From positions 10,372 through 74,371 of the forward strand of contig CAYSSY010000003.1 of the NCBI GenBank assembly GCA_964434055.1: a stretch of DNA of 64,000 bases, given 5' to 3'. Position 1 is the stretch's first letter; each line of letters begins with the position of its first letter. The translations under genes were made by a program, and so were the position numbers. This DNA comes from an uncultured Gammaproteobacteria bacterium. GTDB taxonomy: Bacteria > Patescibacteriota > Patescibacteriia > UBA2196 > CAYSSY01. This document shows, piece by piece, positions 3,567-49,128 of this stretch. The notes below the pieces were generated by a model that worked only from the letters and a program-made list of their open reading frames with translations, was not told where the DNA came from and did not search any database.

Positions 3567-4427
3567 TTATTTACGTTTCATTATATAAATTGATTTGTTG
3601 TGAAAGGAATAACTAGGATCCTGGTCAATCTGAATTATCTTAAAAAATTTTTTAAATATCTTTTCATAATCACCTTGATAAAGCTGGGTAAATTTTGCAT
3701 CCAGGCCTAAGTTAAAAGATAAAGCACGATAAACTGCTTGATCTATCTTTTTACGCTTCAAGAAATTAAGCAGTGACTGTTCATACCACCCAAACTTGAT
3801 CTGCCACTTTTGTTGATCAAAATATTCTTTATTATGATTATTAATAAAGGCTTGATAAATAATTTCTTTATTGGAAAAATTCTTAAACCAGCCTGGCTTT
3901 TTTCGATAAAATTCGATCAGCGCTTTAAACTTCCCAGAGCGGATTTCCTTAGGTAAAAAAGACTTGTTCACCAAATAATAGCAACCATAAAGATAATAAC
4001 CACCATCTTTTAAATAATCATGAACATTTTTATGAAAAGATAAATAGTCTTTAAAGGCGATATTGTCCAAAGCTTCATCACTGATCACAAGATCAAAATA
4101 ATTTTTTTTAAATGGCTGGTCAAGCCAATTGCCTATTTTAAGCCGCTCTTTTGTTGGTTCGGTTTTCATAACGGTTTCCATAGCCTGAAACATTTCACGA
4201 TTAACATCAAGACAGGTGACTTGAAACTGGTGGCGGTTAAGCAGGTCGCGAAATTCCGGCGTTGAACCTAAAATTAAAGCGTGCTTATTTCTTTTCTTAC
4301 CAAATACTTTCTGCAAAAATTGGGAATATTTTTTAACTTCAAAAGGTGAAGGACGCCACGGCGGCGTCACTTTCAACCAGACGTCGGCATATTTTTTCCA
4401 ATTTTTATTAAATACCTTTTTAGACAT
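3567..4427 (-). CDS. Paralog 1 of a Rossmann / class I methyltransferase-like family (LGSTPEFRDL loop)
   Basis: The protein begins MSKKVFNKNWKKYADVWLKVTPPWRPSP, followed by ALILGSTPEFRDLL, VTCLDVNREM, FDLVISDEALDNI and LKDGGYYL. The ORF track extends to 4463, but the ATG at 4427 lies 1 nt after the paralog 2 stop and matches the MSK start of paralog 7. Confidence 0.6.
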   Translation of the reverse strand: MSKKVFNKNWKKYADVWLKVTPPWRPSPFEVKKYSQFLQKVFGKKRNKHALILGSTPEFRDLLNRHQFQVTCLDVNREMFQAMETVMKTEPTKERLKIGNWLDQPFKKNYFDLVISDEALDNIAFKDYLSFHKNVHDYLKDGGYYLYGCYYLVNKSFLPKEIRSGKFKALIEFYRKKPGWFKNFSNKEIIYQAFINNHNKEYFDQQKWQIKFGWYEQSLLNFLKRKKIDQAVYRALSFNLGLDAKFTQLYQGDYEKIFKKFFKIIQIDQDPSYSFHNKSIYIMKRK

Positions 4428-4428
4428 A

Positions 4429-5286
4429 TTATTTTTTAACTTGACCAAAGAAAAATAACGCATAATTCTTGGTGAAAAAGAAATTATCAGCTTGTTTAAC
4501 CGGCATTAGCTGAAAAAAAACTGTCATGTTTTTTTCCAATACCTCTTTCTCAACAAAAGTATGAATGATGTTGCTACGAAACCACCACATGGCGTCAAAA
4601 GCTTTTTGTGAAAGCTCACCTTTTTTATAATATAAATACAAATGATCAAACAATTTTTTCATATATAAACGACATTGCTTTCTATTGTAAATCTTAGGTT
4701 TTAGCTCACTGTTAATATAGAGTGATAAGAACATGTCAAACCAATGAGATACACCACGATCGAATTTTTGGGTTATTTTTTTGACCGAATCTGGCGCAAT
4801 CTTTGAATTAAAAACAAATTCCCTAATAATCAAATAACCATCTTTTTTTAAAAGCCGATGATTTTCTTTAAAAAAACGGCTGTGATCTTTAACACTGATA
4901 TTATTAGTGACGCCGTCGCCAATGACAACATCAAAAGAATTATCAGCTAAACCAGATTCCAACCAATCGCCAATAATTATTTTTTCTTTTTTATGACCAG
5001 CATATCTCATGAGTTTATTGCATTTCACAATCATATCAGTGCTAACGTCAAGAGTAACTAAACTACCACCTAATTCTAAAACCAAATCCCTAATTTCCGG
5101 CGTTGCCCCTAGAACTAAAGCTTTGAAATGCTTTTTATTTTTAACAGCTTTCATTATAAGCTCTCGGTAAACAGCGATAATACCTTTCGCGGCTGATGGT
5201 GCACCTGGATAATTTGAGCGCTCCATAGTTCTTTGATCAGCAATTTTATCCCGCCATTCTTTTTGTTTTCTTTTAGTTATTGACAT
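4429..5286 (-). CDS. Paralog 2 of the same family
   Basis: It carries ALVLGATPEIRDLV, VTLDVSTDM, FDVVIGDGVTNNI and LLKKDGYLIIRE. The ATG is at 5286. Confidence 0.6.
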   Translation of the reverse strand: MSITKRKQKEWRDKIADQRTMERSNYPGAPSAAKGIIAVYRELIMKAVKNKKHFKALVLGATPEIRDLVLELGGSLVTLDVSTDMIVKCNKLMRYAGHKKEKIIIGDWLESGLADNSFDVVIGDGVTNNISVKDHSRFFKENHRLLKKDGYLIIREFVFNSKIAPDSVKKITQKFDRGVSHWFDMFLSLYINSELKPKIYNRKQCRLYMKKLFDHLYLYYKKGELSQKAFDAMWWFRSNIIHTFVEKEVLEKNMTVFFQLMPVKQADNFFFTKNYALFFFGQVKK

Positions 5287-5289
5287 AAA

Positions 5290-6132
5290 TTATTTCTTTT
5301 TAGCTAAATAAAAACGAGAAAGTACTTGTTCACCCGGAAACTCGTCCAAAATTTTAAAGTATTTTTCAAAAGATGATAAATAAGTTTCTTTTTTAAAAAT
5401 TACTGCCTGTTTTTTACTATTCAGATAGATCTTGAGGCCAGCTAATTCCTTCTCGGTAATTCTGTTTTGTTTGTACCAATTATCAAGCAGAGTCAGGTGC
5501 TTCTTTAAATTATCAGAATAATCCTGATAATATATTTTTTCATCTTTTGCCCGCCACGTGCTCAAAAGAAGTAGCCAGCGTAAATCATTAACATTGATAT
5601 TTTTTTGGTGATCATAATGACTAATAATTTCAGCGAAACTTTTAAATTGAAAGGTTTTATCAAAATAGCCAGTTTGCTCAAAAAAATAGCCAGTATTTTT
5701 TAACCAATGATTAATATTTAGAAATAATTTTGGCAAGTCTACTCTGGACACCATGTTAACTGCCCAATCTGATAAAACTAAATCAAAATGATTTTGAGGA
5801 AGAGAAGCTTTTAACCAGTCGGCATTAATCAAAACTTCTTGGGCATAATTTTGTTTCATAAACCGGCGCATGGCAAGCTGCATGTTATGGTTGATGTCAA
5901 TACTGGTTAAATGCCAACCTCGGGCTAAACACAAATCACGTAATTCCGGAGTCGAACCCAACACCAAAGTTTTTATGTTTTTCTTTTTTATAAGCTGACT
6001 TAAATACTTTCGATAAATTTTTATCGAATATGGTGAAACACGCCCGGGCGGCAAAGTCACTCGCCAGTTTTTGACTAAGCTGGGAATAGAATTATCTGGA
6101 AAATATTGGCTTAAATTTTTTTTAAGCGTCAT
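5290..6132 (-). CDS. Paralog 3 of the same family
   Basis: It carries WRVTLPPGRVSP, TLVLGSTPELRDLC, TSIDINHNM, FDLVLSDWAVNMV and LKNTGYFF. The ATG start overlaps the paralog 4 stop by 11 nt. Confidence 0.6.
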   Translation of the reverse strand: MTLKKNLSQYFPDNSIPSLVKNWRVTLPPGRVSPYSIKIYRKYLSQLIKKKNIKTLVLGSTPELRDLCLARGWHLTSIDINHNMQLAMRRFMKQNYAQEVLINADWLKASLPQNHFDLVLSDWAVNMVSRVDLPKLFLNINHWLKNTGYFFEQTGYFDKTFQFKSFAEIISHYDHQKNINVNDLRWLLLLSTWRAKDEKIYYQDYSDNLKKHLTLLDNWYKQNRITEKELAGLKIYLNSKKQAVIFKKETYLSSFEKYFKILDEFPGEQVLSRFYLAKKK

Positions 6133-6976
6133 ATTTTTTCTTTAATAAATAAGCTGGCATCTGCATAGCACAAAAATGATAATCCTGACATTGCTCTAGT
6201 GGGGATATTTCAAAATCTTTGCTTAATAAATCTTCTAAATGATCTTTAAATAATAACATCATGTATTTGTGAGCATTACTATGCGCATCTTGATACCAAT
6301 TAAAAAAATCTTTTATTTCATATTTTTTGTTAATTTTCAAAAGCTCCTGGTAAACAGCATATGAATCAACTATAGTCGGCGATCTCAGACAAGGATTTAT
6401 ATAACTGGAATATTTCAAATAATTAAAAAGTTCTATGTCAGATAATTGACCCTCTCGACGGGCGGCAAAATAATTTCCAACCTGTTCTGGAGTAATCATT
6501 TTGTTGCTAGTAACCGCTACAACCTCTCGGGTTAAAAAATAACCACCAGGACTCAATATCTTACTAATTTTATTAAGTAATTTTATAAGTTCATCCAAAT
6601 TTAAAATTTGATTTAAAGAAGCATCGCCAAGAACCAAATCAAATTCACCTTCTTTAAATTTAGTGGTCAGCCAATTAGAAACCAGGTAGTGTTCGTTTTT
6701 CTCTGTTTGGTGCATTAACTTCTCCATTGCCAAAATCATGCCTTCATTCAAATCACAAACCGTAACTTCATAGCCGTGACTGGCCAGCAGATCACGAAAC
6801 TCGGGCGTGGAGCCGAGAGTTAAGGCTTTAGGATTTGCTTTTTTAGCCTTGATTGTTTTAATAACTTTCTCCCAAATTTTAAGCTGAGTTGGACATGGTC
6901 GTGAAGGCGGCTTAACTAGATCAACCCATGACCGAGCCATAATTTCCCAGGTTTCTTTGTTTTGTGCCAGAGACAT
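6122..6976 (-). CDS. Paralog 4 of the same family
   Basis: It carries WVDLVKPPSRPCP, ALTLGSTPEFRDLL, VTVCDLNEGM, FDLVLGDASLNQI and LSPGGYFLTRE. Confidence 0.6.
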   Translation of the reverse strand: MSLAQNKETWEIMARSWVDLVKPPSRPCPTQLKIWEKVIKTIKAKKANPKALTLGSTPEFRDLLASHGYEVTVCDLNEGMILAMEKLMHQTEKNEHYLVSNWLTTKFKEGEFDLVLGDASLNQILNLDELIKLLNKISKILSPGGYFLTREVVAVTSNKMITPEQVGNYFAARREGQLSDIELFNYLKYSSYINPCLRSPTIVDSYAVYQELLKINKKYEIKDFFNWYQDAHSNAHKYMMLLFKDHLEDLLSKDFEISPLEQCQDYHFCAMQMPAYLLKKKYDA

Positions 6977-6978
6977 AT

Positions 6979-7821
6979 TTATTGCTTCCTTTTTAGTTTA
7001 TAAATCCGAGACAGCTGACGGTAAACTGGGTGACAGGTGTCAGGCAGATACTTTTCAATTACAAAATATTTTTTAAGTAATTTTTCATCTTCTTGGCCAC
7101 TGTAGCCATAGGCCCAATATTTATGGCGTGGAATTATTTTTAAGGTTGCATCATTTAATTTTTTAATTTTTTGATCATTTTTCGCTAAAAATTTTAGTCT
7201 GGCAAAAAGCCGGTCGGCACTGACCTGTTTATTTTGACTGCCGCAACAAAAAACACCAAATGACCACAGATCACTGACCACTTTATCAGTCAATTTCTTT
7301 TGACTCATTTTCACAATCACCTTGTCTAAATCTAACAAGGCTTTTTTGTTAAAATAACTGAAAAAACGAGTAATAAAATAACCATCTTTTTTTAGTAAAT
7401 CATTGATATGCTGATACATTTGAAGTAAATCCCGACGGGGCACATTGCCAGTGACAAAATCACCAAAAACCAAATCGTAATAATTTTGCCTTAAGGGCGC
7501 GGTCGTCCAGCTTGCTTTAATCCAGGTTTCATTGTCTGTTTTTCTTTTCATTAAATTCGTCATGGCAATAATCATTTCCATATTAATGTCACACACCGTC
7601 ACTTTAAGCTGATGATATTTAGCAAACAAGTCTCGCAACTCTGGCGTCGAACCCAACAACAGCACTTGAACATTGTTTTTATTTTTAATTGCTTCGAACA
7701 TTAGTTTTTTAAAAGCCATAATATTGCCGAGAGAGGGCCGGGAGGGTGGATAAATTTTTAGCCAGGTTGCGGCAAAATTCCGCCAGGCTGCAGTATATTT
7801 TTTTTGAAGTGATTGAGGCAT
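6979..7821 (-). CDS. Paralog 5 of the same family
   Basis: It carries WLKIYPPSRPS, VLLLGSTPELRDLF, VTVCDINMEM, YDLVFGDFVTGNV and LLKKDGYFITR. Confidence 0.6.
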   Translation of the reverse strand: MPQSLQKKYTAAWRNFAATWLKIYPPSRPSLGNIMAFKKLMFEAIKNKNNVQVLLLGSTPELRDLFAKYHQLKVTVCDINMEMIIAMTNLMKRKTDNETWIKASWTTAPLRQNYYDLVFGDFVTGNVPRRDLLQMYQHINDLLKKDGYFITRFFSYFNKKALLDLDKVIVKMSQKKLTDKVVSDLWSFGVFCCGSQNKQVSADRLFARLKFLAKNDQKIKKLNDATLKIIPRHKYWAYGYSGQEDEKLLKKYFVIEKYLPDTCHPVYRQLSRIYKLKRKQ

Positions 7822-7822
7822 A

Positions 7823-8629
7823 CTATTTTTTCTTTAAAAAATAAACAGGGCAAAGATATGACAAGCGATGATCAGAAGCGTGTTTTTTGGCTGTGATCTG
7901 GAAATATTTTTTTAGCTTTTTTTCTTCATTAATTTCTGCGTCCTGAAACCAAGTTTTTTCAAAAGGATAATCTGCAATAAATCTTTGATACAAAATTTTA
8001 TATTTTCTTCTGTTAGAAAGTGCTTGCTTACGGATCATCTGCTTAATAATTTGTCTAACACTTCTAAAGTCAAATTGTTTTAGTTTTTTATTCCAAACCA
8101 CTGACTGCAAGGCAAATTGAAACTCGCAGATATTAGGATCTTTTTGATCGGCATAATGTGTGACAACAGCGCTTGCTTTTAAATTATGATCAAGCATTAT
8201 GTGGCGAGTTATAAATAAGCCATCTTTTTTTAATAATCTTTTTATCTCTAAGTAAAACTGGCTGCGCAAATTGAGGGGGATATTGGAAATAACAAAATCA
8301 CCCAAGATATAATCAAAATAATTTGTCTTTAAAGGTGTTTCAAGCCAGTTGGCAATAACCCATGTTTCAGCAGCGCTTTTATAAGAGTATTTCATTAGTC
8401 GCGAGGTTGAGACAAGCATCTCTAAATTCATGTCACAGGCAACCACTTCACATTTTAACTCATGTCCGAGATCACGATATCTAGGTGTGGCGCCCAAAAC
8501 CAAAACTCTAGCGCCGGTTCTCATAACTTTCTTCATTAAAGCAACTTCACCAAAGGATGGTATTATTGGTTCGCGGTAAATATGCCATTGATCAGCAATC
8601 TTTTTAAACCAGTTAATGTTTGAATTCAT
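7823..8629 (-). CDS. Paralog 6 of the same family
   Basis: It carries VLVLGATPRYRDLG, VVACDMNLEM, FDYILGDFVISNI and LLKKDGLFITR. Confidence 0.6.
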   Translation of the reverse strand: MNSNINWFKKIADQWHIYREPIIPSFGEVALMKKVMRTGARVLVLGATPRYRDLGHELKCEVVACDMNLEMLVSTSRLMKYSYKSAAETWVIANWLETPLKTNYFDYILGDFVISNIPLNLRSQFYLEIKRLLKKDGLFITRHIMLDHNLKASAVVTHYADQKDPNICEFQFALQSVVWNKKLKQFDFRSVRQIIKQMIRKQALSNRRKYKILYQRFIADYPFEKTWFQDAEINEEKKLKKYFQITAKKHASDHRLSYLCPVYFLKKK

Positions 8630-8639
8630 AAATGGTTGA

Positions 8640-8712
8640 GTTTTAGTAAGTGGTAGCCAGTAGTAAGTAACAGGGAGTAAGTAGTCGGTAAGCTATAGTC
8701 GTAAGTCATAAG
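8640..8712. repeat. Short tandem-ish array of (A)GTAAGT motifs in the paralog 7 / paralog 6 spacer
   Basis: The motif GTAAG(T) occurs at 8646, 8663, 8677, 8688 and 8701, spaced 11-17 nt apart, within the 91-nt gap between the paralog 7 stop and the paralog 6 start. Confidence 0.4.
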
Positions 8713-8720
8713 TCAGCCGA

Positions 8721-9596
8721 TTATTTGACTTGCATCAGCCAAATCGGAAAACACTGATCATTGCATCTAAAATAGCAATCAGCTAAAACTTTTTTATTCA
8801 GAATCTTAAAATATCTTTTTATTTGCTTTTCGACCTCAACTTCCCAAGAGACGCTCCAGGTTTTTTTCATCGGTTGCCACATCTGCCACATATCGTTAAG
8901 CAAAACGTTTAGTTTTTTATCGGGATGAACAAAATGATCTTTTCTAAAAAATTTGTTTAAACCTTTTATAATTAAAGACAAATCTATTAATTTCTTCCTG
9001 TAATTAAAAGTTAAGTTATGAAGATAAACTAAAAGTTCTATAGACATACAGGAACGATCGCGATAAAAGTCACTGGGGACGTCTTTAAATTTATTAAGAA
9101 CAATCTCATAATCTTCAAATGGAAAATCTTGTGGCACCACCTCAATCTTGCTGATAAAATAACCGCTGTTTTTTAATACACGGACAATCTCTTTTAAAAA
9201 TCTATCTTGCAAATTCCCAGGGACATTTGACAAAACAACATCTCCCATGGCTGCGTCAAAATAATGATCCTGAAAAGGCAAGTCGCACCAATTGCCGCGC
9301 ACCACGATCTCATTTGGATTCTTGTGCTTCATAATCGAAGTCATGGCGAGAATCATTTCCAAATTTAAATCAATAAAAGCAACTTCAAATTTTTCTTCAA
9401 AGGCTAAATCCCTAAGTTCTGGCGTGGAACCAAAAATTAAAACTCGCGGTTTTCTTTTTAAACCACGTTTAGCTGTTCTTAAGTGCCGGCGATATTCGGC
9501 AATGGCACTTTGAGAAGGCCGGCCCGGCGGCCGATAATATTTCTGCCACCTCTGAGCATAATCTTTCCATGGCTCGGCAAAAGTTTCTTTAGACAT
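8721..9596 (-). CDS. Paralog 7 of the same family; first gene of the apparent operon
   Basis: The protein begins MSKETFAEPWKDYAQRWQKYYRPPGRPS, followed by VLIFGSTPELRDLA, VAFIDLNLEM, FDAAMGDVVLSNV and LKNSGYFIS. The ORF-track start at 9632 is a TTG codon, whereas the ATG at 9596 gives an N-terminus that aligns with paralog 1. Confidence 0.55.
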   Translation of the reverse strand: MSKETFAEPWKDYAQRWQKYYRPPGRPSQSAIAEYRRHLRTAKRGLKRKPRVLIFGSTPELRDLAFEEKFEVAFIDLNLEMILAMTSIMKHKNPNEIVVRGNWCDLPFQDHYFDAAMGDVVLSNVPGNLQDRFLKEIVRVLKNSGYFISKIEVVPQDFPFEDYEIVLNKFKDVPSDFYRDRSCMSIELLVYLHNLTFNYRKKLIDLSLIIKGLNKFFRKDHFVHPDKKLNVLLNDMWQMWQPMKKTWSVSWEVEVEKQIKRYFKILNKKVLADCYFRCNDQCFPIWLMQVK

Positions 9597-9654
9597 ATAT
9601 ATAAATCTACCGCGAAATACCTTAAAAATCAATAATAAAAATTTATTTTGTCAT

Positions 9655-18784: not shown

Positions 18785-19214
18785 TAAACTGGAATAATTT
18801 TTTTCCTCACAATCTTGGATTACTGTCAATTTTTATATAAAATAAAAAACTAGTAGTATCATATCCCTACTAGTATTTATGTAGAGCTCTGTCACTCCTG
18901 TGTTAAATCCTTTAATGCTTTTTCTAGCCTTAAAACAGTAACCTTATCTTTAGCGGAATGAGGTGATTCTTTAAATTTTTTTGTAACCTTTTCAGGATGT
19001 TTGTTACAAATATGACCAAAGAGCCATTCTCAAACACCGCTCTCTTTGTTACAATAAGGACACTTCTCACCCATTTTTGATTACTCCTCTATTAAAGTAC
19101 TTAATTATATTGATAATACTCTTCATATAATATGTCAATATTATTTGGCAATTTGACAAACCTTTAAACCATATTCTAAAATTAAGTCACGAGTAAATTT
19201 TTTACAAATTTATA

Positions 19215-19350
19215 CACAGGCCTTTCCGGTGGTCCATCGGAAAAAATAATCAGGGAAAGCGGTGTAAATCCGCTGCTGTGCCGCAACTGTAACTCTGCCC
19301 ATATTTTGTGGATAAATATGTGAAGAGAAGCCAGATGACTGATACTGTGT
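19215..19350 (+). promoter_or_regulatory. cobalamin (B12) riboswitch aptamer
   Basis: The segment AATCAGGGAAAGCGGTGTAAATCCGCTGCTGTGCCGCAACTGTAA matches the conserved cobalamin-riboswitch core (GGGAA..GGTG.AA.TCC...GC.G..CCGC.ACTGTAA). A downstream GAAGCCAGATGACTG segment is also present. It lies in the 5' leader of the 19437 gene. Confidence 0.65.
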
Positions 19351-19404
19351 TTTATTAACTAATAACTCTTCGAGCTAAAGAGTTTAGGTTTTTATGCCTA
19401 ATCA

Positions 19405-19436
19405 TCCGCCCTCAAAAGAGTGGGATTTTTTATTTT
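19405..19436 (+). terminator. Putative riboswitch expression-platform terminator hairpin
   Basis: The hairpin CCCTCAAAAGAGTGGG (bulged stem) is followed by ATTTTTTATTTT and ends just before the ATG at 19437. Confidence 0.4.
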
Positions 19437-21218
19437 ATGAAAAAAACTCTAAATTTTTTCCTAATTGGTATTATTCTGACAATGCCACTTTTTTCATCAG
19501 CAATCAATGTCACGACTGAATCAATAACTTATTTAAAAAGTAAAACCAATAATCCTTGGGTAACGATGGCTTTAGTGGCGGCGGGTGAAAATACTGGTAA
19601 TGTTGATTATCTAAAAAATGTCACTGAAACTGAAGCTGTCAAATTAGCAGCACCTATTTTAGCAATAACAGCACTTGGGCAAGATCCGAGATCTTTTGGT
19701 GCACAAAATTTAGTCTCTCAGTTAAAAAAAACATATAAACAAAATCAACTGGGTGATACTGCCACCATGAATGATGATATTTTTGGTTTGTTGGCCCTTG
19801 TGTCAGCTGGCGAAAATAACGAGGACTTGGTCGTGAATGGTACTAAAAATTTTATTCTTAATCACCAAAACAGCGATGGCGGCTGGGGCTTTCAAGTTAA
19901 TGGTTCATCAGATACCAACATGACTGCCATGGCAATTATGGCCTTAATAAAAGCTGGTGAAGATGGTGAGAAGATTAATCAGGCTGTAAATTATTTAAAA
20001 AATTCACAAAATAATGACGGTGGTTTTCCATATGATAAATCAAGCACTTGGAGTTCAGTCTCCGATGCTTCTTCCGATGCTTGGGTAATTTCCGCTATCT
20101 ATTGTCTGGGACAAGATCCATATAATTGGACGAAAAACGGAAAAAACCCAGTTGATCATTTAAAATCATTACTAGCTAATGAAGGCTACTTTCATTATCA
20201 AACAGGAAGTAATGAAGACTCATTTTCTACCATCACTACTGCTTATGCCGTGATTGCTTTGTCTGGAAAATATTATCCAATTAACACAATTAACGTTAGA
20301 CTAAAAGAATATGCTTTCCGTATTGAAGGCTCTAGTGAGACTATTTGTAGCGGTCAAATCGGGGCAGTAACTGCGCTTGATATTGTAAAAAATGCTCAAG
20401 AAATCTGCAGCTTCAATTATCTAATTGAAAATATGAGTTTCGGACCTTATTTAAAAAAAATAAACACTGATGAAGCACAGGGTTTAAAAGGCTGGCTTTA
20501 TTTAGTCAACTATAATTCACCCACAGTTGGCGCCGCTGATTATCAACTTCAAGAAAATGACGAGGTAATCTGGTTCTATGGTGAGTGGACTGATCAACCG
20601 CTTAAGATAAGCGTTGATAAAACCGAGGTTGGACAAAATGAAAATATCACAGCCACGGTCAACTTTTTTAGTCAATCTGGTTGGCAACCACTAACCGGCG
20701 CTCAAATCTTAGATAAAGTTACAGATAGTAGTGGTCAAACCATTCTATCGTTCACTGATGGCTATTATCGATTATCAGCCAAAAAAAATGGCTTCATAAG
20801 AAGTAATCAAATTAATTTAAAAGTCGGCAATCCTCAAGAAAATTCAGTCTCATTAAAAGTTGAGATTGAAAAGGGCCAAGTTGCTGGCGATGAAACCAAT
20901 GGTTCAGGAACAATTTCATTCTCTGTTGAACCAAATGAGTTAAACTTTGGTAAGTTAAAAAACGGCGCTAACAGTTCCCAAAAACTAAAAATAACTAACA
21001 ATGGCAGCACCGCCATGCATATTGAAGCTAAGGTGGACGGTGATGAACTTTTTCGCAATAACTTACAGCTTAATGATAAGTTCTGGCTTTACTTTTCTGA
21101 AAATTTAGAACAAAATCAAAATCGCGATATTACCGCACAATTGTCAGTTCCAGCAAGCTATGGTGGTAGTGCTGGTTCCAAGCAAGGTGCTCTCATTTTT
21201 TGGGCGATGGCACAGTAA
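19437..21218 (+). CDS. Secreted cobalamin-binding-like protein: alpha/alpha-toroid (prenyltransferase/squalene-oxidase-like 'DGGWG' repeats) + DUF4430-like beta domain + C-terminal Ig-like region (transcobalamin/intrinsic-factor-like architecture)
   Basis: It has a signal peptide and repeats NSDGGWGFQVNGSSDTNMTAMAIMALIKAG and NNDGGFPYDKSS...SSDAWVISAIYCLG. A segment GWLYLVNYNSPTVGAADYQLQENDEVIWFYGEW matches the DUF4430 pattern (W.YxVNG...Y.L..GD.I.W.Y). It is under the B12 riboswitch. Confidence 0.55.
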   Translation: MKKTLNFFLIGIILTMPLFSSAINVTTESITYLKSKTNNPWVTMALVAAGENTGNVDYLKNVTETEAVKLAAPILAITALGQDPRSFGAQNLVSQLKKTYKQNQLGDTATMNDDIFGLLALVSAGENNEDLVVNGTKNFILNHQNSDGGWGFQVNGSSDTNMTAMAIMALIKAGEDGEKINQAVNYLKNSQNNDGGFPYDKSSTWSSVSDASSDAWVISAIYCLGQDPYNWTKNGKNPVDHLKSLLANEGYFHYQTGSNEDSFSTITTAYAVIALSGKYYPINTINVRLKEYAFRIEGSSETICSGQIGAVTALDIVKNAQEICSFNYLIENMSFGPYLKKINTDEAQGLKGWLYLVNYNSPTVGAADYQLQENDEVIWFYGEWTDQPLKISVDKTEVGQNENITATVNFFSQSGWQPLTGAQILDKVTDSSGQTILSFTDGYYRLSAKKNGFIRSNQINLKVGNPQENSVSLKVEIEKGQVAGDETNGSGTISFSVEPNELNFGKLKNGANSSQKLKITNNGSTAMHIEAKVDGDELFRNNLQLNDKFWLYFSENLEQNQNRDITAQLSVPASYGGSAGSKQGALIFWAMAQ

Positions 21219-21352: not shown

Positions 21353-21883
21353 ATGTCTTCATGTAAATATTTAACTAGATACTTGATATTTCTGCTGCTC
21401 CTATTACCATTGTTGACTAAGGCTGCCGGCTTAGCCGTTACGCCAGCAAAAGTCAATTTAGAGATGACTACTGGCCAAGAAAAAAATGTCTCACTCGAAG
21501 TTGAAAACACCAGCAGTAATGTTAATCTCTATGACGTCTGGCTAGACGACGAATTTAATTTTATTAAAATTACCCCTCAAAGTTTTACCTTAGAAAGTGG
21601 GGAAAAGAAAAAGATAAACCTTATTATTACCGGAGAAAGAGAACTGAGTTTAGCCACAACAATTTCGATTATTGGCCGACCGCTTGGCATTCAAGAATTC
21701 AATTTAACGCCGGGCATAAAAATTCCGCTTAGTATAAGCATCGCCCCCCAACAAAAAAAACTAATAAATGAGTATCTTATCTATACTATCTTAAGTTTAA
21801 TGGTCCTGACTGTTGTTGTGTGGCTCATAATACTGACACGTCTTAAAACAAAGAAAAAAACGAAAAACTTATTTTTAAATTAA
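21353..21883 (+). CDS. hypothetical exported protein with a C-terminal TM anchor
   Basis: It is 176 aa with a signal peptide, a beta-rich middle region and a C-terminal TM helix plus a basic tail (LSLMVLTVVVWLIILTRLKTKKKTKN). It lies downstream of the B12-binding-like gene on the same strand. Confidence 0.45.
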   Translation: MSSCKYLTRYLIFLLLLLPLLTKAAGLAVTPAKVNLEMTTGQEKNVSLEVENTSSNVNLYDVWLDDEFNFIKITPQSFTLESGEKKKINLIITGERELSLATTISIIGRPLGIQEFNLTPGIKIPLSISIAPQQKKLINEYLIYTILSLMVLTVVVWLIILTRLKTKKKTKNLFLN

Positions 21884-21885
21884 AT

Positions 21886-21920
21886 TAAAAAAAACAGCCT
21901 TTAAAAAAGGCTGTTTTAAA
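21886..21920. terminator. Bidirectional rho-independent terminator between the 21353 gene (+) and murI (-)
   Basis: The hairpin AAACAGCC-TTTAAAAAA-GGCTGTTT is flanked by an A-run on one side and a T-run on the other. Confidence 0.5.
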
Positions 21921-44424: not shown

Positions 44425-47400
44425 TTATTTTTTTTCTACTTTTCGCCAAGCTTGTGCCTCAATAGTTGGGTGAACCTTGCCTGGGCCTTTCTTAATAGTG
44501 TCATATATCTCTTCCGGAGTATAACCACCATAAACATAGGCATTCACTAGTTTGTACCAATAGCGCGGTGAAACATAGATTGGCCTGTTATTATTCAATT
44601 TTATTAAGGCATCCCAAAGTTCTTCGGCAGCTTCTTGTTCAGTAGTCAAACTACCCAAACGTGATTTGCCGTAGATCATTGTCTTATCTTTGGAAATTTT
44701 TACTGGTTTGGGATAAAGTGGACTATAGCCATTTCTAACCTCAATGCCATCCAAATAAGTATCACTATCAGTATCACTATTTTCTGGATCGGTGCCATAC
44801 CATTCTTCTTGTTGATCACTTAAACCGTCATTATCACTATCGGTAATGAGAGCAGCCCCACTAAGTGTTGGGCTGGTCGACTGATCTTGAAATGTCTCTG
44901 TTGGTTTAGTTACAACTGGTTGAACGACATTAGGAGTTACAACGGGGGTTTCACCAAAAACTTGAGTATTATCATTGTTGGCATCTAAAAACAAAACATA
45001 TTTACCATTCACCCATTGCGTCTTACTTAAAGCAGAATCAACACCTTTGGATAAATCAGACCAGATGAATGCATTACTAATATTGGTATTAATATAAGAC
45101 GCAGGAGCCGGTTCCAAGACAGTTGAAGATGAATCACCAATCATTTTAACTTTAACATAGTAATCATTTGTTTGTTTTACGACCGTACCAACCAATTCAA
45201 ATGTTTTAACAGTGCCGGCTGGAATAACCAGATAACTATCATTAAAATAAACACTGCTATTATTAGTGAGTGGATATTCAATATCAGCAGCAACATCCTT
45301 TAACACCAGATTACTAATAACTATATTCTTCGCATCAAGAATACCAAACATCATCTTGTAAATACCAACATCACCTTTTGCATCTGCTGCTACAGTAAAA
45401 CGGTACAAACTTTGTGTACCATTATTTATGGTTGTCGTAAGTAGACTTTTTTTAGAAACAACCGGCTGTGTCTTAAATAAATAAACCTTATTGCTTTGGA
45501 AAGATCCTTCTTTGTTGGTCGGCGAATAAATCAAACCACTTGTTTTACCCACTGCTACCACATCAACAGCCGCCAGATTTAAGACAAGACCATTACCAGA
45601 AGAAGCCGGACAGTTTTCACCAATACAATTTGTATCACCTTTTAGTGCTAGGGTTTTAACGCTATTACTTGTTATTAATAAACCATTGGGAATTGTTAAA
45701 ATTACTTCACTGGTCGAGGTGGGCACTGCCTCACCCAATTTTGTCGCACCATCATAAAGTGTAATTTTATTAATAACTTTCAACAAATTACCACCATTAA
45801 GACCTTCTGTCTTAAATTTTAAACTTTTGACTTCAATGTTTTCAGATATAGCCTTTAAATCAAAATTACCAAAATTAGAATTTGTGCCACCAGCAGTATA
45901 CAGACCACTTGGTACAGTGGCAGCACTGGTGCTAACAACTAACTTGCCTGTATGACCAATAACAACTTTTGAACCCACTAAAGGATAACTGCCACTAACC
46001 TTGATTTGATTGTTTGAACTATTACCAAAAGCTAAAACAAAAGTATCATTGTCAATGCTTATTTGGTGACTGGTGTTATTTTCAGCGCTTGCCGAAATAT
46101 CAGCGGTTAATTTTAAGGTTTTAATAGTGCCTTTTGCAATTATTAAAGGATTATTAAAAACAAGGACTAGATCACTATAAAGACTATTATTAAATGTTCC
46201 TGATTCTGGTATGTTGAGAACGGTTTGAGTACTAACATCAGTTAAGATAATATTAGATAGATCTGCTTGAATACCCACCTTTGACAACGTATCAGTTAGC
46301 TCTACTTTGGTCACTTTAATATCCTCGCTGGAACTACCAGCATCAAATTTAATTGTAGCTAACAACTTATTTATCTCACCAGCTAGATAATGAATTTCTT
46401 TAGCGGTATCGGTCACGGATACATTCAAACTAGGAACATTTGTAGTACTGGGCAGTTGACAAGTGGCTAACTGGGCGCTATCAGTTAAACAGTCATATTT
46501 TTTATCTATGACACCGCCATTAGTATAGACAATATTTACCGGTGCTGTCACCACTGAGCTACGATTTAAATTGTTTGCCCACAGACCAACCTCAGTAATT
46601 GGATATTTATAATTACCATAAACCAAATAAACCTTATCGGGATCAGAACTATATTTTATTAGTGTCCCGTCAGGATAATTATTATTAATGGCTGTGCCTA
46701 TTAGATAATTAACAAAAAAACTATCAGGCACAGTAACCAAACGAGCACTCCAATTACTCCCATAAAGCTTTGTTAGTTGTTCTGTTGATATTTGATGCAG
46801 TTGCTGCTTAGAACCTACGGCATAGACCGTTGCTGATTGAGGAGTTTTGGCTAAACTAGTACCTGGTCTTAAGACAATATTACCACTTAAGGCATAACTT
46901 TCAGCAACAACAGCACTGACTGTTTTTATTTTAGTCGCATCAACTTGCCAAGAATTCATGACATCCTGCTTGTAATTACTACCCAGAGTATAAGGGAAGA
47001 CATAACGTTTATTATTACTCGCTAAATAATAAACATAGTTTAGGTTATTTTCAATGATAAAAAGATCACCTACTTGCAAAACCTCAACATCTGAACTTTT
47101 TCTTATATAGATTAAAGTATCATAACCCTCTCCATTATCATTCTTAGCTTTGATAGCTAAAGTATGTGTGCCAACTGATAAATTAGTAAAGGTATAGCTA
47201 TGTGTCCCAGCCAGGTACATTGTTCCTTTATAGGTTCCGCTACTGTCAGGAATTTCCGTACTATTGTCAAAAAAGTGTAACGTGGCATTCTGATCTAATT
47301 TAAAGTCAACTTTATAATAATTATTAGTGCCAGAATTTTCCCATAATGGATTAGTTATATCTAATTGCGGCTGATTACCCAGACACTTTTCATACTCATG

Positions 47401-49128
47401 ATTATGATCATCAAAATATGACCAAACACGGCGCTGGGTACCATTAAGATTAGTTTTCCAATCAACATCGTTTTGACCTGGAACATACCACTGAGACCAA
47501 GCACCATTAAACCACTGGATACGATATTTTAGAATTTCCGGATGTTTGGAGATATCAAGCCCTAGAGCTTGAAAGTTATAACCACCAAGTGGCTTCTCAT
47601 TAATAATTGTAGTTCGGCCGGTGGTGCAAGATGGAGATATGACTTCAACATTAACTGCTGTTGCAAAAGTATTATTATTTTCGTTTGATTCACTAACATT
47701 ATCTAGTGGATCAACTGTTATTATTATATTATTGTTACCATATACAAAATAATTATCGCTCTTACTAGTTACATCGACGTTACCAACCACATAAACATGA
47801 CTGATATAATTATTAGGCTCAAAATAATCAAAGTAGAATTGCGAATTAAAAATTTCCTTGTTTAAAGTTGTATTTCTGACAGTTAATAAGAAACTTTGAT
47901 TGGGTTTGACCTGTCCAATATTTGTCAAATCAAATTCAAGTTGGATGTCCCAAGGTTCAATATTGGTTTGTCTTAAATCTGTATATTTGAAATTCTTGAC
48001 TGTTAAATCAGCTTTATAATATTGGCCACCATCAGTAGTAGTGGTAAAGTTATAGACTGAACTTTCAGAATAATTGTTCTCACTTGCGGTACAGATAATC
48101 TTATAATAATATTTTGTACTTGGTAATAAGCCATTCAAATTAGCTGAATATAGATAGTAACCTGTCTCGCCACTTAGCGAACGATTCGTATATAACAAAG
48201 ATGTACCATTACTCAAGTCACTATTCTTACTATATACTACGGAACAATTATATTGACCATTGGCAAACCAGGCTAATGAAGCTGATTCAAAACCAATACT
48301 AATTGAAGTGTCCTTAATCAGTGGTTTTGGCGCACCAATTGTTAATGTTTTGGTCAAAATATTATTATTTTCATTCGATTCAATAACATTATTATCACTG
48401 TCAATCCTAAGTGTGTAAATTAAATCTTGCTGAATTAACGTATCTCGATCGTGAGCTGGTTGTGTTCTAAATTCATAACTTTCGCCCGGTTTTAAATTTA
48501 AAATATTAGACCTCAAACCACTGGTACTATTCTTTTCCATAATAGTAAAATAAAAAGGACCAGTATCTACAGTGCCATTATTTTTAAAAGTAGCAACCAT
48601 CTCTAATATATCATATTGCAACCAAATATCGTTGCTAGGGTGGGTTAAGTTTCTTATTTCTAATTTAATTGGAATTAAATCAGGTTTTGTTCGATTGATA
48701 ACAACTAATTCTTTTGTAATGTTATTATTAGATGTATTAATTTCACCGGCAACATTTTTGATAGTAAGTGTGATCGAATAAGTTCCGGGTTCAGTAAAGT
48801 TATAGTTGGTGGTATAAGTGGTGAAATTGCCGGCATTGATGCCAAAACCATCATTCACATCAAAAATTTCAGTAGCAACCAAATCATTGTTTAAACTGAT
48901 TTCCACCTGAATTGAAAAAATCCCCGAAAAAGAAGTTGTACCAATATTTTGAATTGAAGGGACTAATAAAACTGTATTGTCATTATTGCTGTCAGGGTCA
49001 CTTAATCCAAAACCTGAAAAGATCAGATCTGGAGAAATGTTTATTTCACTAGCACTAATAGATAACGGACTAAAGCCCAATAATATAATAGCAGCAATTA
49101 AGATAAAATATATTTTATTTTTTTTCAT
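44425..49128 (-). CDS. Giant (1567 aa) secreted surface protein with multiple Ig-like/CARDB/fibronectin-III-like domains and C-terminal thrombospondin-type-3-like Ca-binding repeats
   Basis: It has a signal peptide. The mid-region is Asn/Thr/Ser-rich and beta-rich. Near the C-terminus are DxDxDG repeats (TDSDNDGLSDQQEEWYGTDPENSDTDSDTYLDG), followed by a ~70-aa conserved tail. Confidence 0.65.
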   Translation of the reverse strand: MKKNKIYFILIAAIILLGFSPLSISASEINISPDLIFSGFGLSDPDSNNDNTVLLVPSIQNIGTTSFSGIFSIQVEISLNNDLVATEIFDVNDGFGINAGNFTTYTTNYNFTEPGTYSITLTIKNVAGEINTSNNNITKELVVINRTKPDLIPIKLEIRNLTHPSNDIWLQYDILEMVATFKNNGTVDTGPFYFTIMEKNSTSGLRSNILNLKPGESYEFRTQPAHDRDTLIQQDLIYTLRIDSDNNVIESNENNNILTKTLTIGAPKPLIKDTSISIGFESASLAWFANGQYNCSVVYSKNSDLSNGTSLLYTNRSLSGETGYYLYSANLNGLLPSTKYYYKIICTASENNYSESSVYNFTTTTDGGQYYKADLTVKNFKYTDLRQTNIEPWDIQLEFDLTNIGQVKPNQSFLLTVRNTTLNKEIFNSQFYFDYFEPNNYISHVYVVGNVDVTSKSDNYFVYGNNNIIITVDPLDNVSESNENNNTFATAVNVEVISPSCTTGRTTIINEKPLGGYNFQALGLDISKHPEILKYRIQWFNGAWSQWYVPGQNDVDWKTNLNGTQRRVWSYFDDHNHEYEKCLGNQPQLDITNPLWENSGTNNYYKVDFKLDQNATLHFFDNSTEIPDSSGTYKGTMYLAGTHSYTFTNLSVGTHTLAIKAKNDNGEGYDTLIYIRKSSDVEVLQVGDLFIIENNLNYVYYLASNNKRYVFPYTLGSNYKQDVMNSWQVDATKIKTVSAVVAESYALSGNIVLRPGTSLAKTPQSATVYAVGSKQQLHQISTEQLTKLYGSNWSARLVTVPDSFFVNYLIGTAINNNYPDGTLIKYSSDPDKVYLVYGNYKYPITEVGLWANNLNRSSVVTAPVNIVYTNGGVIDKKYDCLTDSAQLATCQLPSTTNVPSLNVSVTDTAKEIHYLAGEINKLLATIKFDAGSSSEDIKVTKVELTDTLSKVGIQADLSNIILTDVSTQTVLNIPESGTFNNSLYSDLVLVFNNPLIIAKGTIKTLKLTADISASAENNTSHQISIDNDTFVLAFGNSSNNQIKVSGSYPLVGSKVVIGHTGKLVVSTSAATVPSGLYTAGGTNSNFGNFDLKAISENIEVKSLKFKTEGLNGGNLLKVINKITLYDGATKLGEAVPTSTSEVILTIPNGLLITSNSVKTLALKGDTNCIGENCPASSGNGLVLNLAAVDVVAVGKTSGLIYSPTNKEGSFQSNKVYLFKTQPVVSKKSLLTTTINNGTQSLYRFTVAADAKGDVGIYKMMFGILDAKNIVISNLVLKDVAADIEYPLTNNSSVYFNDSYLVIPAGTVKTFELVGTVVKQTNDYYVKVKMIGDSSSTVLEPAPASYINTNISNAFIWSDLSKGVDSALSKTQWVNGKYVLFLDANNDNTQVFGETPVVTPNVVQPVVTKPTETFQDQSTSPTLSGAALITDSDNDGLSDQQEEWYGTDPENSDTDSDTYLDGIEVRNGYSPLYPKPVKISKDKTMIYGKSRLGSLTTEQEAAEELWDALIKLNNNRPIYVSPRYWYKLVNAYVYGGYTPEEIYDTIKKGPGKVHPTIEAQAWRKVEKK

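What the first reader, a model, noticed from the sequence alone, without database searches (positions are those of the whole stretch)
19437..21218. B12-riboswitch-controlled secreted protein with transcobalamin/intrinsic-factor-like domain architecture
The protein combines a signal peptide, an alpha/alpha-toroid built from prenyltransferase/squalene-oxidase-like DGGWG repeats, and a segment matching the DUF4430 pattern (GWLYLVNYNSPTVGAADYQLQENDEVIWFYGEW). In eukaryotic transcobalamin and intrinsic factor, an alpha6/alpha6 barrel plus a small beta domain sandwich cobalamin, and the beta domain is the DUF4430 homolog. Placement under a cobalamin riboswitch therefore argues that this is an extracellular or cell-surface B12-capture protein, with extra C-terminal Ig-like domains. 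For a host-dependent, B12-auxotrophic lineage this would be its key B12 acquisition factor. Its ligand specificity is likely uncharacterised.
Basis: partly seen in the sequence, partly recalled or inferred. Interest (0 to 1): 0.65.

Follow-up and report, generated by a model that had tools for sequence, protein, structure and literature searches.

The report
Bacterial transcobalamin-like B12 capture protein
A tiny symbiotic (CPR) bacterium keeps, under a vitamin-B12-sensing RNA switch, a secreted protein built like the human B12 carriers transcobalamin and intrinsic factor; it most likely captures B12 outside the cell and belongs to a large, never-studied microbial family.

Summary
A cobalamin riboswitch (19201-19362, Rfam 40.4 bits, cut-off 31.5) precedes a 593-aa ORF (19437-21218). 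The protein has a signal peptide, a single alpha/alpha toroid, a DUF4430 beta-domain and two Ig-like domains. Both Pfam core hits pass their curated cut-offs. The AlphaFold model (pLDDT 86.8) finds transcobalamin, intrinsic factor and haptocorrin as its 15 best PDB matches (E 6e-14 to 5e-10), across both core domains.

Comparative evidence is strong. In 80 related loci, 69 carry a cobalamin riboswitch upstream on the same strand. Neighbours include ECF transporters, DUF6580 membrane proteins (fused to the toroid once), B12-dependent ribonucleotide reductase and corrinoid adenosyltransferases. A 176-aa membrane-anchored Ig-like protein (21353-21883) is a conserved operon partner. It occurs almost exclusively with the Ig-bearing form.

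The terpene-cyclase and prenyltransferase annotations are not supported: no DXDD motif, no zinc site, and the protein is exported.

Best reading: an extracellular cobamide-capture protein. Ligand binding, specificity and the partner's role are inferred, not shown. No transporter or B12 enzyme lies in this window. I found no literature on the family. I rate it a new variant of a known kind.

The parts
19153..19182 (+). Sigma-70-like promoter candidate (TTGACA-18 nt-TAAAAT), 19 nt upstream of the aptamer
   Evidence: 11 of 12 consensus matches, the best site in the region. It is a consensus match only.
19201..19362 (+). Cobalamin riboswitch aptamer (RF00174), including the B12 box (AGCCAGAUGAC) and a P1 helix (ACACAG/CUGUGU)
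   Evidence: 40.4 bits against a gathering score of 31.5, full-length model match. My own core model R1 scores 76.3 bits at 19253-19344.
19404..19436 (+). Candidate expression platform: an imperfect 8-bp hairpin followed by UUUUUUAUUUU. It ends at the start codon and covers a possible GAGUGGGA ribosome-binding site.
   Evidence: MFE fold; z-score is not significant. The terminator scan did not call it because of bulges. Its role is inferred.
19437..19502 (+). Sec-type signal peptide (aa 1-22, predicted cleavage SSA|IN); no lipobox
   Evidence: Read from the sequence. Hydrophobic N-terminus in 50/64 family members and lipobox in 0/64. The model gives a helix at aa 2-19 and low confidence at aa 17-22.
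19509..20291 (+). Single alpha/alpha toroid domain of about 12 helices (aa ~25-285) with squalene-cyclase-type repeats. Invariant polar clusters: LNDD 111-114, D159/N161/T163, Q191/N192/D194-G196, S209/D210/S213.
   Evidence: squalene-hopene cyclase 2e-24 by profile; helices, pLDDT >90; aligns to the TC/IF/HC alpha domain; invariant residues.
20298..20588 (+). DUF4430 / transcobalamin-type beta domain (aa ~288-384). Invariant C304 and C324 probably form a disulfide. Invariant G336, Y338, L339, W353, G365 and Y369 match TC segments GPYL, W and G.ADY.
   Evidence: 35.2 bits, cut-off 23.8; 5no0 E=5.9e-4, residue alignment; invariants; TC Tyr362 is a described corrinoid contact.
20592..20861 (+). 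First Ig-like beta-sandwich domain (aa ~386-475), CarboxypepD_reg-like in relatives
   Evidence: strands, pLDDT about 90-95; 25/64 members hit PF13620, best 2.7e-7.
20907..21218 (+). Second Ig-like domain (aa ~491-593, ASH/Cep192/HYDIN/choice-of-anchor-D type) after a disordered linker (aa 476-490), plus the stop codon
   Evidence: 54/64 members hit Cep192_D4. Across loci it co-occurs with the 176-aa partner.
21353..21883 (+). Conserved operon partner of 176 aa: signal peptide, one Ig/PapD-like beta-sandwich of about 105 aa, a C-terminal transmembrane helix and a basic tail (type I membrane protein)
   Evidence: Found on the same strand immediately downstream in 34 loci. Weak PapD_N/Cep192 hits. 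No Pfam family on record. The AlphaFold model has low confidence; only its secondary-structure plan was used.
21891..21917 (.). Bidirectional intrinsic terminator (12-bp stem flanked by A/T runs) closing the two-gene unit and the convergent murI gene

Best explanation
The locus is a two-gene, B12-repressed operon: promoter, cobalamin riboswitch, 593-aa protein, 176-aa protein, terminator.

The 593-aa protein is exported by a Sec signal peptide. Its core works like transcobalamin or intrinsic factor. A single alpha/alpha toroid and a small DUF4430 beta-domain are joined by a short linker and close around one cobamide molecule. The beta-domain covers the nucleotide face, with invariant Y338 equivalent to TC Tyr362. 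The polar helix-start clusters of the toroid bind the corrin amides.

Two C-terminal Ig-like domains keep the binder at the cell surface, most likely by docking to the co-transcribed type I membrane Ig-like protein. The captured cobamide is handed to a membrane permease: a DUF6580 protein in other CPR genomes, or an ECF-type S/T/AA transporter in Chloroflexota, Bathyarchaeia and Firmicutes. Inside the cell it is adenosylated (BtuR or PduO type) and used chiefly by class II ribonucleotide reductase. When intracellular cobamide is sufficient, the riboswitch shuts the operon off.

Shown here:
- the riboswitch, the domains and the fold similarity;
- family-wide riboswitch linkage;
- gene neighbourhoods and gene fusions.

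Inferred:
- cobamide binding and its geometry;
- surface tethering through the 176-aa protein;
- hand-over to a permease;
- the direction of regulation (OFF switch).
For: 1. Riboswitch at Rfam's curated threshold, on the same strand, 75 nt upstream.

2. Foldseek against the PDB: ranks 1-15 are all transcobalamin, intrinsic factor or haptocorrin (7qbe_A 6.3e-14; 2bb5 4.1e-11; 2pmv 7.8e-11; 4kki 5.5e-10). Each aligns over about 420 columns spanning both domains. Terpene cyclases and prenyltransferases follow at 1e-7 or weaker. The model is confident: pLDDT 86.8, and above 90 over most of the core.

3. Sequence link of the beta-domain to human TC. The GPYL, W and G.ADY segments coincide with family-invariant columns. 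TC Tyr362 is a described corrinoid contact (PMC4350170).

4. Family-wide regulation. 69 of 80 related loci have a cobalamin-riboswitch core upstream on the same strand, and 55 of these lie within 400 nt of the projected start. Only 2 hits fall on the opposite strand in 930 kb. 4 of the 11 misses have fewer than 100 nt of upstream sequence. Rfam's curated models confirm riboswitches in 6/14 and 12/13 loci tested, the latter set not used for my model.

5. Neighbours in relatives, verified by Pfam:
- ECF S component, CbiQ/EcfT and a fused ABC ATPase;
- DUF6580 membrane protein;
- membrane-anchored single DUF4430 proteins;
- NrdJ-type ribonucleotide reductase;
- BtuR and PduO-type adenosyltransferases.

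6. A fusion in L034 joins DUF6580, the toroid, PG_binding_1 and a surface Ig-like domain. Thermosyntropha has toroid plus SLH domains. Elsewhere the alpha and beta modules occur fused in either order or as adjacent genes. This mirrors the ligand-driven assembly of separately expressed TC alpha and beta domains (PMC5599065).

7. Export signals: an invariant Cys pair in the beta-domain and the signal peptide.
Against: - No binding experiment exists, and no ligand-docked model could be made.
- Global superposition on holo-TC is poor (TM about 0.4, rmsd about 21 A). I attribute this to a different inter-domain orientation in an apo model, but did not verify it.
- The alpha domain has no sequence match to the eukaryotic cobalamin-binder family (PF01122 absent from the 25 families listed when all 64 members were scanned). 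By sequence it is closest to squalene-hopene cyclase repeats. Common ancestry of the alpha domains is therefore unproven, and the architecture could be convergent.
- The 64-kb window holds no permease, adenosyltransferase or B12-dependent enzyme.
- The protein has no anchor of its own. The proposed tether through the 176-aa protein rests only on co-occurrence and a weak profile match.
- The expression-platform hairpin is not statistically distinctive.
Confidence: 0.77

Rival explanations
1. It is what public annotation calls it: a prenyltransferase or squalene-cyclase-type enzyme acting on isoprenoids, for example in envelope lipid chemistry. On this view the riboswitch link is incidental.
For: Pfam Prenyltrans and SQHop_cyclase hits are above their cut-offs. 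The family profile reaches squalene-hopene cyclase at 2e-24. Several sources name homologues 'prenyltransferase/squalene oxidase repeat-containing protein'.
Against: - No member has a DXDD motif; the family has an invariant L-N-D-D instead.
- The toroid has no invariant Cys or His that could form a prenyltransferase zinc site.
- There is only one toroid of about 260 aa, whereas class II cyclases have two.
- The protein is exported by a signal peptide, away from isoprenoid diphosphate substrates.
- Fold ranking puts TC/IF/HC well above the cyclases.
- The riboswitch link holds in 69/80 loci across phyla, so it is not incidental.
Confidence: 0.03
2. It is a corrinoid-related binder, but not for complete cobalamin. 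It may scavenge cobinamide or other incomplete or variant corrinoids, as haptocorrin does, or sequester them competitively rather than feed uptake.
For: - Haptocorrin shares the same fold and binds analogues and cobinamide (PMC5599065, PMC4350170); it is among the top fold hits (4kki).
- Rodionov-type CbrT ECF systems were originally proposed for B12 precursors (from my memory, not checked here).
- The riboswitch reports only the intracellular cobamide state.
Against: - Neighbouring adenosyltransferases and NrdJ argue for delivery of a usable cobamide.
- CPR genomes are not known to remodel corrinoids, and no remodelling genes were seen in the loci examined.
- Nothing in the sequence discriminates between ligands.
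Confidence: 0.12
3. It is a cell-surface attachment or host-interaction protein (alpha-2-macroglobulin/TED-like toroid plus Ig-like domains), and B12 status merely regulates its expression as a host-proximity or nutritional cue.
For: - Weak TED_complement hits in the query (E=6.9e-4) and in 33/64 members.
- Ig-like domains, SLH and peptidoglycan-binding modules occur in relatives.
- The CPR lifestyle depends on host contact (established knowledge).
Against: - It does not explain the invariant DUF4430 domain with TC-like contact motifs.
- It does not explain the linkage and fusion with ECF and DUF6580 membrane transport proteins, or with adenosyltransferases and NrdJ.
- No thioester motif was looked for or seen.
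Confidence: 0.05

Closest known systems
Eukaryotic cobalamin carriers: transcobalamin (2BB5, 4ZRP), intrinsic factor (2PMV, 3KQ4), haptocorrin (4KKI)
   Same: - Secreted two-domain core: an N-terminal alpha6/alpha6-type toroid, a linker and a small C-terminal beta-domain.
- They are the best PDB fold matches, aligning over both domains.
- The beta-domain is homologous by sequence (DUF4430), and the residue equivalent to TC Tyr362 is invariant.
- Like TC with CD320 or IF with cubilin, the system may use a dedicated membrane partner (inferred).
   Different: - The alpha domain belongs by sequence to the squalene-cyclase/prenyltransferase repeat family, not PF01122.
- It has two extra C-terminal Ig-like domains.
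- It is prokaryotic and riboswitch-controlled.
- In relatives the alpha and beta modules can be separate genes or in reverse order.
- No equivalent of the TC cobalt-coordinating histidine was identified.
Bacteroides surface B12-capture lipoproteins BtuG/BtuH working with BtuB (from my knowledge of Wexler 2018 and Putnam 2022; not re-read here)
   Same: The functional logic is the same: an extracellular high-affinity cobamide binder encoded in a B12-riboswitch-controlled uptake locus, passing the vitamin to a membrane transporter.
   Different: - Unrelated folds: BtuG is a beta-propeller. None appeared among the fold hits listed.
- BtuG/BtuH are lipid-anchored in a diderm outer membrane, and hand-over is to a TonB-dependent transporter.
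- The present protein has no lipobox and belongs to monoderm-type lineages.
ECF-CbrT and BtuM-type B12 uptake (S-component-based transporters; from my knowledge of Santos 2018 and Rempel 2018)
   Same: In Chloroflexota, Bathyarchaeia and Firmicutes relatives, the toroid gene is co-transcribed with an ECF S component (PF12822), CbiQ/EcfT and a fused double ATPase. In CPR relatives it sits with a small solitary membrane protein (DUF6580), reminiscent of the solitary S-component-like BtuM.
   Different: - Known ECF-CbrT and BtuM systems are described without an extracellular transcobalamin-like binder.
- Neither the ECF-S representative nor DUF6580 matches any solved structure by sequence.
- None of these membrane genes is present in the window.
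Class II terpene cyclases and protein prenyltransferase beta subunits (squalene-hopene cyclase 1GSZ; GGTase 6O60)
   Same: Alpha/alpha toroid with QW-type repeats. These are the best sequence-level matches for aa ~86-205.
   Different: No DXDD motif, no zinc ligands, a single toroid, an exported protein, and lower-ranked fold matches.
NCBIfam NF053823 'SCO2321 family membrane protein'
   Same: It shares the toroid repeats: 98.5 bits over three stretches.
   Different: The score is far below the family cut-off (300), so the protein is not a member. The function of that family is also unknown to me.

Membership tests
Transcobalamin / intrinsic factor / haptocorrin carriers | Two-domain architecture: an alpha/alpha toroid followed by a small beta-domain | tested here: met
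   The AlphaFold model has helices at aa 27-275 and then a beta-domain at aa 290-382. The top 15 Foldseek PDB hits are TC/IF/HC, aligned over about 420 columns.
Transcobalamin / intrinsic factor / haptocorrin carriers | Beta-domain homologous to the TC C-terminal domain (Pfam PF14478) | tested here: met
   PF14478 scores 35.2 bits against a cut-off of 23.8, and 64/64 members match. Human TC beta-domain 5no0: E=5.9e-4 with the single domain and 2.3e-4 with the profile.
Transcobalamin / intrinsic factor / haptocorrin carriers | Alpha domain belonging to Pfam PF01122 (eukaryotic cobalamin-binding protein) | tested here: not met
   No PF01122 hit for the query at E<=1, and PF01122 is not among the 25 families matched by most of the 64 members. 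The profile search of PDB sequences finds no TC alpha-domain match.
Transcobalamin / intrinsic factor / haptocorrin carriers | Conserved beta-domain corrinoid-contact residue (TC Tyr362 position) | tested here: met
   The alignment places query Y338 (in GPYL) on TC Y362. Y338 is invariant in 64/64 members. The role of Tyr362 is taken from PMC4350170.
Transcobalamin / intrinsic factor / haptocorrin carriers | One cobalamin bound at the alpha/beta interface with high affinity | not testable with these tools
   This needs purified protein or a ligand-aware structure prediction.
Cobalamin riboswitch (Rfam RF00174, clan CL00101) | Covariance-model score at or above the gathering threshold, full-length, in the 5' leader on the coding strand | tested here: met
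   40.4 bits against 31.5, model positions 1-189, 75 nt upstream of the ATG. A promoter-like site lies 19 nt upstream.
Cobalamin riboswitch (Rfam RF00174, clan CL00101) | Ligand-dependent control of the downstream gene | not testable with these tools
   Only a weak candidate terminator/SD-sequestering hairpin was found. Conservation of the riboswitch in 69/80 loci supports function.
Class II terpene cyclases (squalene-hopene cyclase type) | Catalytic DXDD acid motif | tested here: not met
   0/64 members have D.DD in the first 300 aa. The invariant motif is L-N-D-D at aa 111-114.
Class II terpene cyclases (squalene-hopene cyclase type) | Two stacked alpha/alpha toroid (beta-gamma) domains | tested here: not met
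   The model has one toroid of about 260 aa. Foldseek alignments to cyclases cover only about 280-320 columns of targets 470-620 residues long.
Protein prenyltransferase beta subunit | Zinc site formed by conserved Asp/Cys/His | tested here: not met
   The toroid has no Cys conserved in at least half of the members, and only H143 in 40/64. The invariant Cys residues (C304, C324) lie in the beta-domain.
NCBIfam NF053823 SCO2321 family | Score at or above the curated cut-off | tested here: not met
   98.5 bits against a cut-off of 300.

The most novel reading that the evidence does not exclude
This family is the prokaryotic counterpart, and possibly the evolutionary source, of the animal B12 carriers. 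On this reading it defines an undescribed B12-uptake route in monoderm bacteria and archaea. A modular extracellular 'bacterial transcobalamin' (toroid plus DUF4430, fused or split) captures cobamides. In CPR bacteria it docks through Ig-like domains onto a dedicated single-pass membrane receptor or tether (the 176-aa protein), analogous to TC with CD320. It then feeds an uncharacterised permease family (DUF6580) or CbrT-like ECF transporters, supplying AdoCbl for the class II ribonucleotide reductase on which these reduced genomes rely.
Probability: 0.4. Interest if true: 0.8.

Novelty: new variant of a known kind. Interest (0 to 1): 0.64.

Why it matters
CPR/Patescibacteria are ultra-small, host-dependent bacteria with minimal biosynthesis. 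How they obtain cofactors is largely unknown. In several relatives this operon sits beside the B12-dependent ribonucleotide reductase and corrinoid adenosyltransferases. B12 capture may therefore gate their DNA synthesis and be a lever in host-symbiont exchange.

More broadly, three points follow:
- The family has at least 437 clusters at 50% identity with E<=1e-30. It spans Patescibacteria, Chloroflexota, Actinomycetes, Firmicutes and Bathyarchaeia, and would add an extracellular binder step to B12 uptake in organisms without outer membranes.
- It gives testable functions to two 'domain of unknown function' families, DUF4430 and DUF6580.
- It offers a concrete prokaryotic relative for asking where the transcobalamin/intrinsic-factor architecture came from.

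The current public names ('prenyltransferase/squalene oxidase repeat-containing protein') are misleading for metabolic reconstructions.

Tried and rejected
- Model coordinates are not exposed. I could not superpose domains separately or measure the alpha/beta cleft.
- The structure of the 176-aa partner came out at pLDDT 44, because only 3 sequences were admissible. It was unusable for a fold search.
- The profile-profile link between the partner and the second Ig-like domain is weak (E 0.0031, probability 10%). The pairwise BLASTP is not meaningful.
- The window was searched for DUF6580, single-DUF4430, ECF S/T/A, NrdJ, BtuR and PduO genes by tblastn and Pfam. Nothing was found.
- The ECF-S and DUF6580 representatives have no sequence match among solved structures, including ECF-CbrT and BtuM.
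- Literature was searched with these terms: DUF4430; DUF6580; transcobalamin + Patescibacteria; cobalamin riboswitch + prenyltransferase; transcobalamin + riboswitch + bacterial; CPR + cobalamin + riboswitch; B12 + squalene cyclase. No description of the bacterial family turned up. The library lacks most subscription papers, and the Wuerges 2006 TC structure paper was not held.
- The cyclase/prenyltransferase enzyme reading was considered and rejected on motifs, topology and localisation.
- The leader hairpin is not distinguishable from shuffled sequence, so the switching mechanism (termination or translation) is left open.
Full report
**1. What is in the sequence**

Window 19437-21218 (+) is an intact 593-aa ORF. 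Rfam's Cobalamin model RF00174 matches 19201-19362 on the same strand at 40.4 bits (gathering score 31.5). The match is full length, with E=9.2e-07 for the whole 64-kb window. It is the only non-tRNA RNA family found there.

A strong sigma-70-like site lies at 19153-19182, 19 nt upstream of the aptamer (TTGACA-18-TAAAAT, 11/12 matches). A 12-bp bidirectional terminator lies at 21891-21917. Between them are two + strand genes: the 593-aa ORF and a 176-aa ORF (21353-21883).

The leader between aptamer and ATG contains an imperfect hairpin followed by a U-run (19404-19436). It overlaps a possible ribosome-binding site, but it is not statistically distinctive. I leave open whether control acts on transcription or on translation.

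**2. Domains**

- Pfam places Prenyltrans (36.1 bits, cut-off 26.5), SQHop_cyclase_C and _N, and DUF4430 (35.2 bits, cut-off 23.8; aa 312-382) above their curated cut-offs.
- The N-terminus (MKKTLNFFLIGIILTMPLFSSA|IN) is a typical Sec signal peptide.
- None of the 64 aligned family members has a lipobox, an LPXTG motif or a C-terminal hydrophobic anchor.
- The public gene call for this very protein starts at Met44 (550 aa) and loses the signal peptide. Homologues align from residue 1.

An AlphaFold2 model built on 64 homologues is confident, with mean pLDDT 86.8. It shows:
- about 12 helices at aa 27-275 (one alpha/alpha toroid);
- a mixed beta-domain at aa 290-382;
- an all-beta domain at aa 387-474;
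- a disordered linker at aa 476-490;
- a second all-beta domain at aa 495-592.

Weak but consistent family hits identify the last two domains as CarboxypepD_reg-like and ASH/Cep192/HYDIN-type Ig-like domains.

**3. Resemblance to transcobalamin**

Foldseek against 350,542 PDB chains ranks transcobalamin, intrinsic factor and haptocorrin in positions 1-15 (E 6.3e-14 to 5.5e-10). Each aligns over about 420 columns, that is, both the alpha and the beta domain. Terpene cyclases and prenyltransferases follow at 1e-7 or weaker and align only to the toroid.

Global TM-scores to the carriers are only about 0.4, with rmsd about 21 A. This fits an apo model whose two domains are oriented differently from the ligand-closed crystal forms. 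In TC the domains are joined by a flexible linker and assemble around the ligand, and the isolated beta-domain binds cobalamin by itself (PMC5599065). I could not verify this by per-domain superposition.

By sequence, the DUF4430 segment reaches the human TC beta-domain: 5no0 at E=5.9e-4 with the single domain and 2.3e-4 with the family profile. The shared segments (F.Y, GPYL, W, N.P, G.ADY) coincide with family-invariant columns Y328, G336, Y338, L339, W353, G365 and Y369. Query Y338 aligns with TC Tyr362, a described corrinoid-contact residue (PMC4350170).

The alpha domain, by contrast, has no sequence match to the eukaryotic cobalamin-binder family PF01122. By sequence it is nearest to squalene-hopene cyclase repeats (2e-24). 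So the protein works like, and is partly homologous to, the TC family. It fails one membership criterion, and common ancestry of the alpha domains is not established.

**4. Not an enzyme**

- No member has the class II cyclase DXDD motif; an invariant L-N-D-D occupies aa 111-114.
- The toroid has no conserved Cys/His zinc site.
- There is a single toroid rather than two.
- The protein is exported.
- The invariant Cys304/Cys324 pair in the beta-domain suggests an extracytoplasmic disulfide (inference).

Invariant polar clusters sit at the starts of successive inner helices: N112-D113-D114, D159/N161/T163, Q191/N192/D194, S209/D210/S213. They are candidates for hydrogen bonds to the corrin side-chain amides (inference).

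**5. Comparative evidence**

The protein has more than 670 homologues in the word-indexed database. Nearly all named ones come from Patescibacteria (Doudna-, Lipton-, Pace-, Uhr- and Staskawiczbacteria, Parcubacteria). They are annotated only as 'DUF4430 domain-containing' or 'prenyltransferase/squalene oxidase repeat-containing'. The exhaustive 50%-identity library gives 437 representatives at E<=1e-30.

I fetched 80 loci from species-representative genomes and built a covariance model of the riboswitch core from seven of them.
- The model hits the + strand upstream of the homologue in 69 of 80 loci.
- In 55 of these the hit lies within 400 nt of the projected start.
- Only two hits fall on the opposite strand in 930 kb.
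- Four of the eleven misses have essentially no upstream sequence.
- Rfam's curated models at gathering threshold confirm a cobalamin-clan riboswitch in 6 of 14 loci. They also confirm one in 12 of 13 loci not used to build my model, at the coordinates of my model's hits.

The riboswitch link is thus a property of the whole family, including members from Chloroflexota, Actinomycetes and other non-CPR lineages.

**6. Neighbours**

I clustered ORFs within 6 kb and checked representatives with Pfam.

- (a) The 176-aa ORF is conserved immediately downstream on the same strand in 34 loci. In some loci the intergenic gap is almost nil (L015, L016, L032).
- (b) In extended CPR operons (L015, L016, L032, L062) two more genes follow: a membrane-anchored single DUF4430 protein of about 145 aa, and a DUF6580 polytopic membrane protein of about 180 aa (163 bits).
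- (c) In Chloroflexota, Bathyarchaeia and Thermosyntropha, the toroid gene is followed by an ECF S component (PF12822), CbiQ/EcfT and a fused double ABC ATPase.
- (d) An NrdJ-type ribonucleotide reductase (8 loci), BtuR (6 loci) or a PduO-type adenosyltransferase lies alongside.

One ORF in L034 fuses DUF6580, the toroid, a peptidoglycan-binding domain and a surface Ig-like domain. Thermosyntropha adds SLH domains. An actinomycete places DUF4430 before the toroid. Five loci encode DUF4430 and the toroid as adjacent separate genes.

These rearrangements show that toroid, DUF4430 and the membrane component are functionally coupled and act at the cell surface.

**7. The 176-aa partner**

Its family (alignment A4) has a signal peptide with an AxA-type site, one beta-sandwich of about 105 aa (motifs G-I-x-V-x-P, N-P-S, G-V-K-I-P), a C-terminal transmembrane helix and a basic tail. 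That makes it a type I membrane protein.

It evolves fast: mean column identity is 27%, and only two close hits appear in the large database. Its presence tracks the presence of the second Ig-like domain of the main protein: Ig2 in 35 loci, partner in 31-34 loci.

Because the main protein has no anchor of its own, I propose that the partner tethers it or receives it at the membrane. This step is inferred. The structure prediction failed (pLDDT 44), and the profile link to Ig2 is weak.

**8. Limits for this genome**

The 64-kb window encodes housekeeping genes: UvrC, a DHH phosphoesterase, MurI, phosphoglucomutases, RecA, FtsK, RpoB/C, SHMT and FolD, among others. It has no B12 transporter, adenosyltransferase, B12-dependent enzyme or cob/cbi gene. 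Whether this organism is a B12 auxotroph, and which permease it uses, cannot be decided from the window.

**9. Novelty**

The DUF4430-transcobalamin link is already implicit in databases and is mentioned for vertebrate proteins (PMC4350170). B12-riboswitch-controlled uptake loci are a well-known kind.

Seven differently worded full-text searches found no description of the following:
- a prokaryotic toroid-plus-DUF4430 binder family;
- its Ig-domain and partner elaboration in CPR bacteria;
- DUF6580 as its membrane partner.

The library is incomplete, so prior work in subscription journals cannot be excluded.

I rate it a new variant of a known kind, with moderately high interest. The prediction is specific, cheap to test, renames hundreds of mis-annotated genes, and bears on both CPR physiology and the origin of the animal B12 carriers.

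Noticed in passing
window 18892-19074 (- strand): A small reading frame with a perfect GAGGAG Shine-Dalgarno about 9 nt upstream: MGEKCPYCNKESGV*EWLFGHICNKHPEKVTKKFKESPHSAKDKVTVLRLEKALKDLTQE*. It has a C-x2-C-x12-H-x4-H zinc-finger-like pattern, interrupted by one in-frame TGA at codon 15. TGA is a rare stop in this window: 2 of 50 long ORFs, against TAA 39 and TAG 9. It could be a pseudogene, a readthrough or a recoded codon.
   Followed up: partly
window 3567-9632 (- strand): Seven consecutive paralogous genes of about 270-300 aa, each a class I SAM-dependent methyltransferase (Methyltransf_11/25). This is an unusual tandem array for a reduced genome. Substrates are unknown.
   Followed up: no
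window 19437-19565; locus L081 10001: The deposited gene model for the main protein starts at Met44 (550 aa) and omits the signal peptide. Relatives align from residue 1. Localisation predictions based on the public model would be wrong.
   Followed up: yes
L015 8754-9290, L062 8939-9490, L032 8694-9374, L046 7850-8386, L034 5296-8568: DUF6580 is a polytopic membrane protein of about 180 aa with a conserved RL.PH..NF.P..A.ALF.G motif. It has no literature in the searched library and no solved relative. It recurs in CPR cobalamin-riboswitch operons (22 of 80 loci) and is fused to the toroid in L034. It is a candidate new B12 permease family.
   Followed up: partly
L015 4435-4506 and 5801-5876; L061 3455-3524 and 7149-7204: Some loci carry two cobalamin riboswitches in one neighbourhood. 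In L015 the first precedes a shorter toroid-only paralogue of 332 aa with a C-terminal hydrophobic tail (4667-5665). In L061 the second precedes an unrelated 547-aa ORF (7213-8856) that I did not identify.
   Followed up: no
L064 1715-1810 (- strand): A selenocysteine tRNA (RF01852, 69.7 bits) lies directly upstream of, and divergent from, the cobalamin riboswitch of an Anaerolineae locus.
   Followed up: no
window 44425-49128 (- strand): A very large (1567-aa) ORF with only CARDB and purple-acid-phosphatase-N-like Ig-type domain hits. It is probably a giant surface protein typical of CPR genomes.
   Followed up: no
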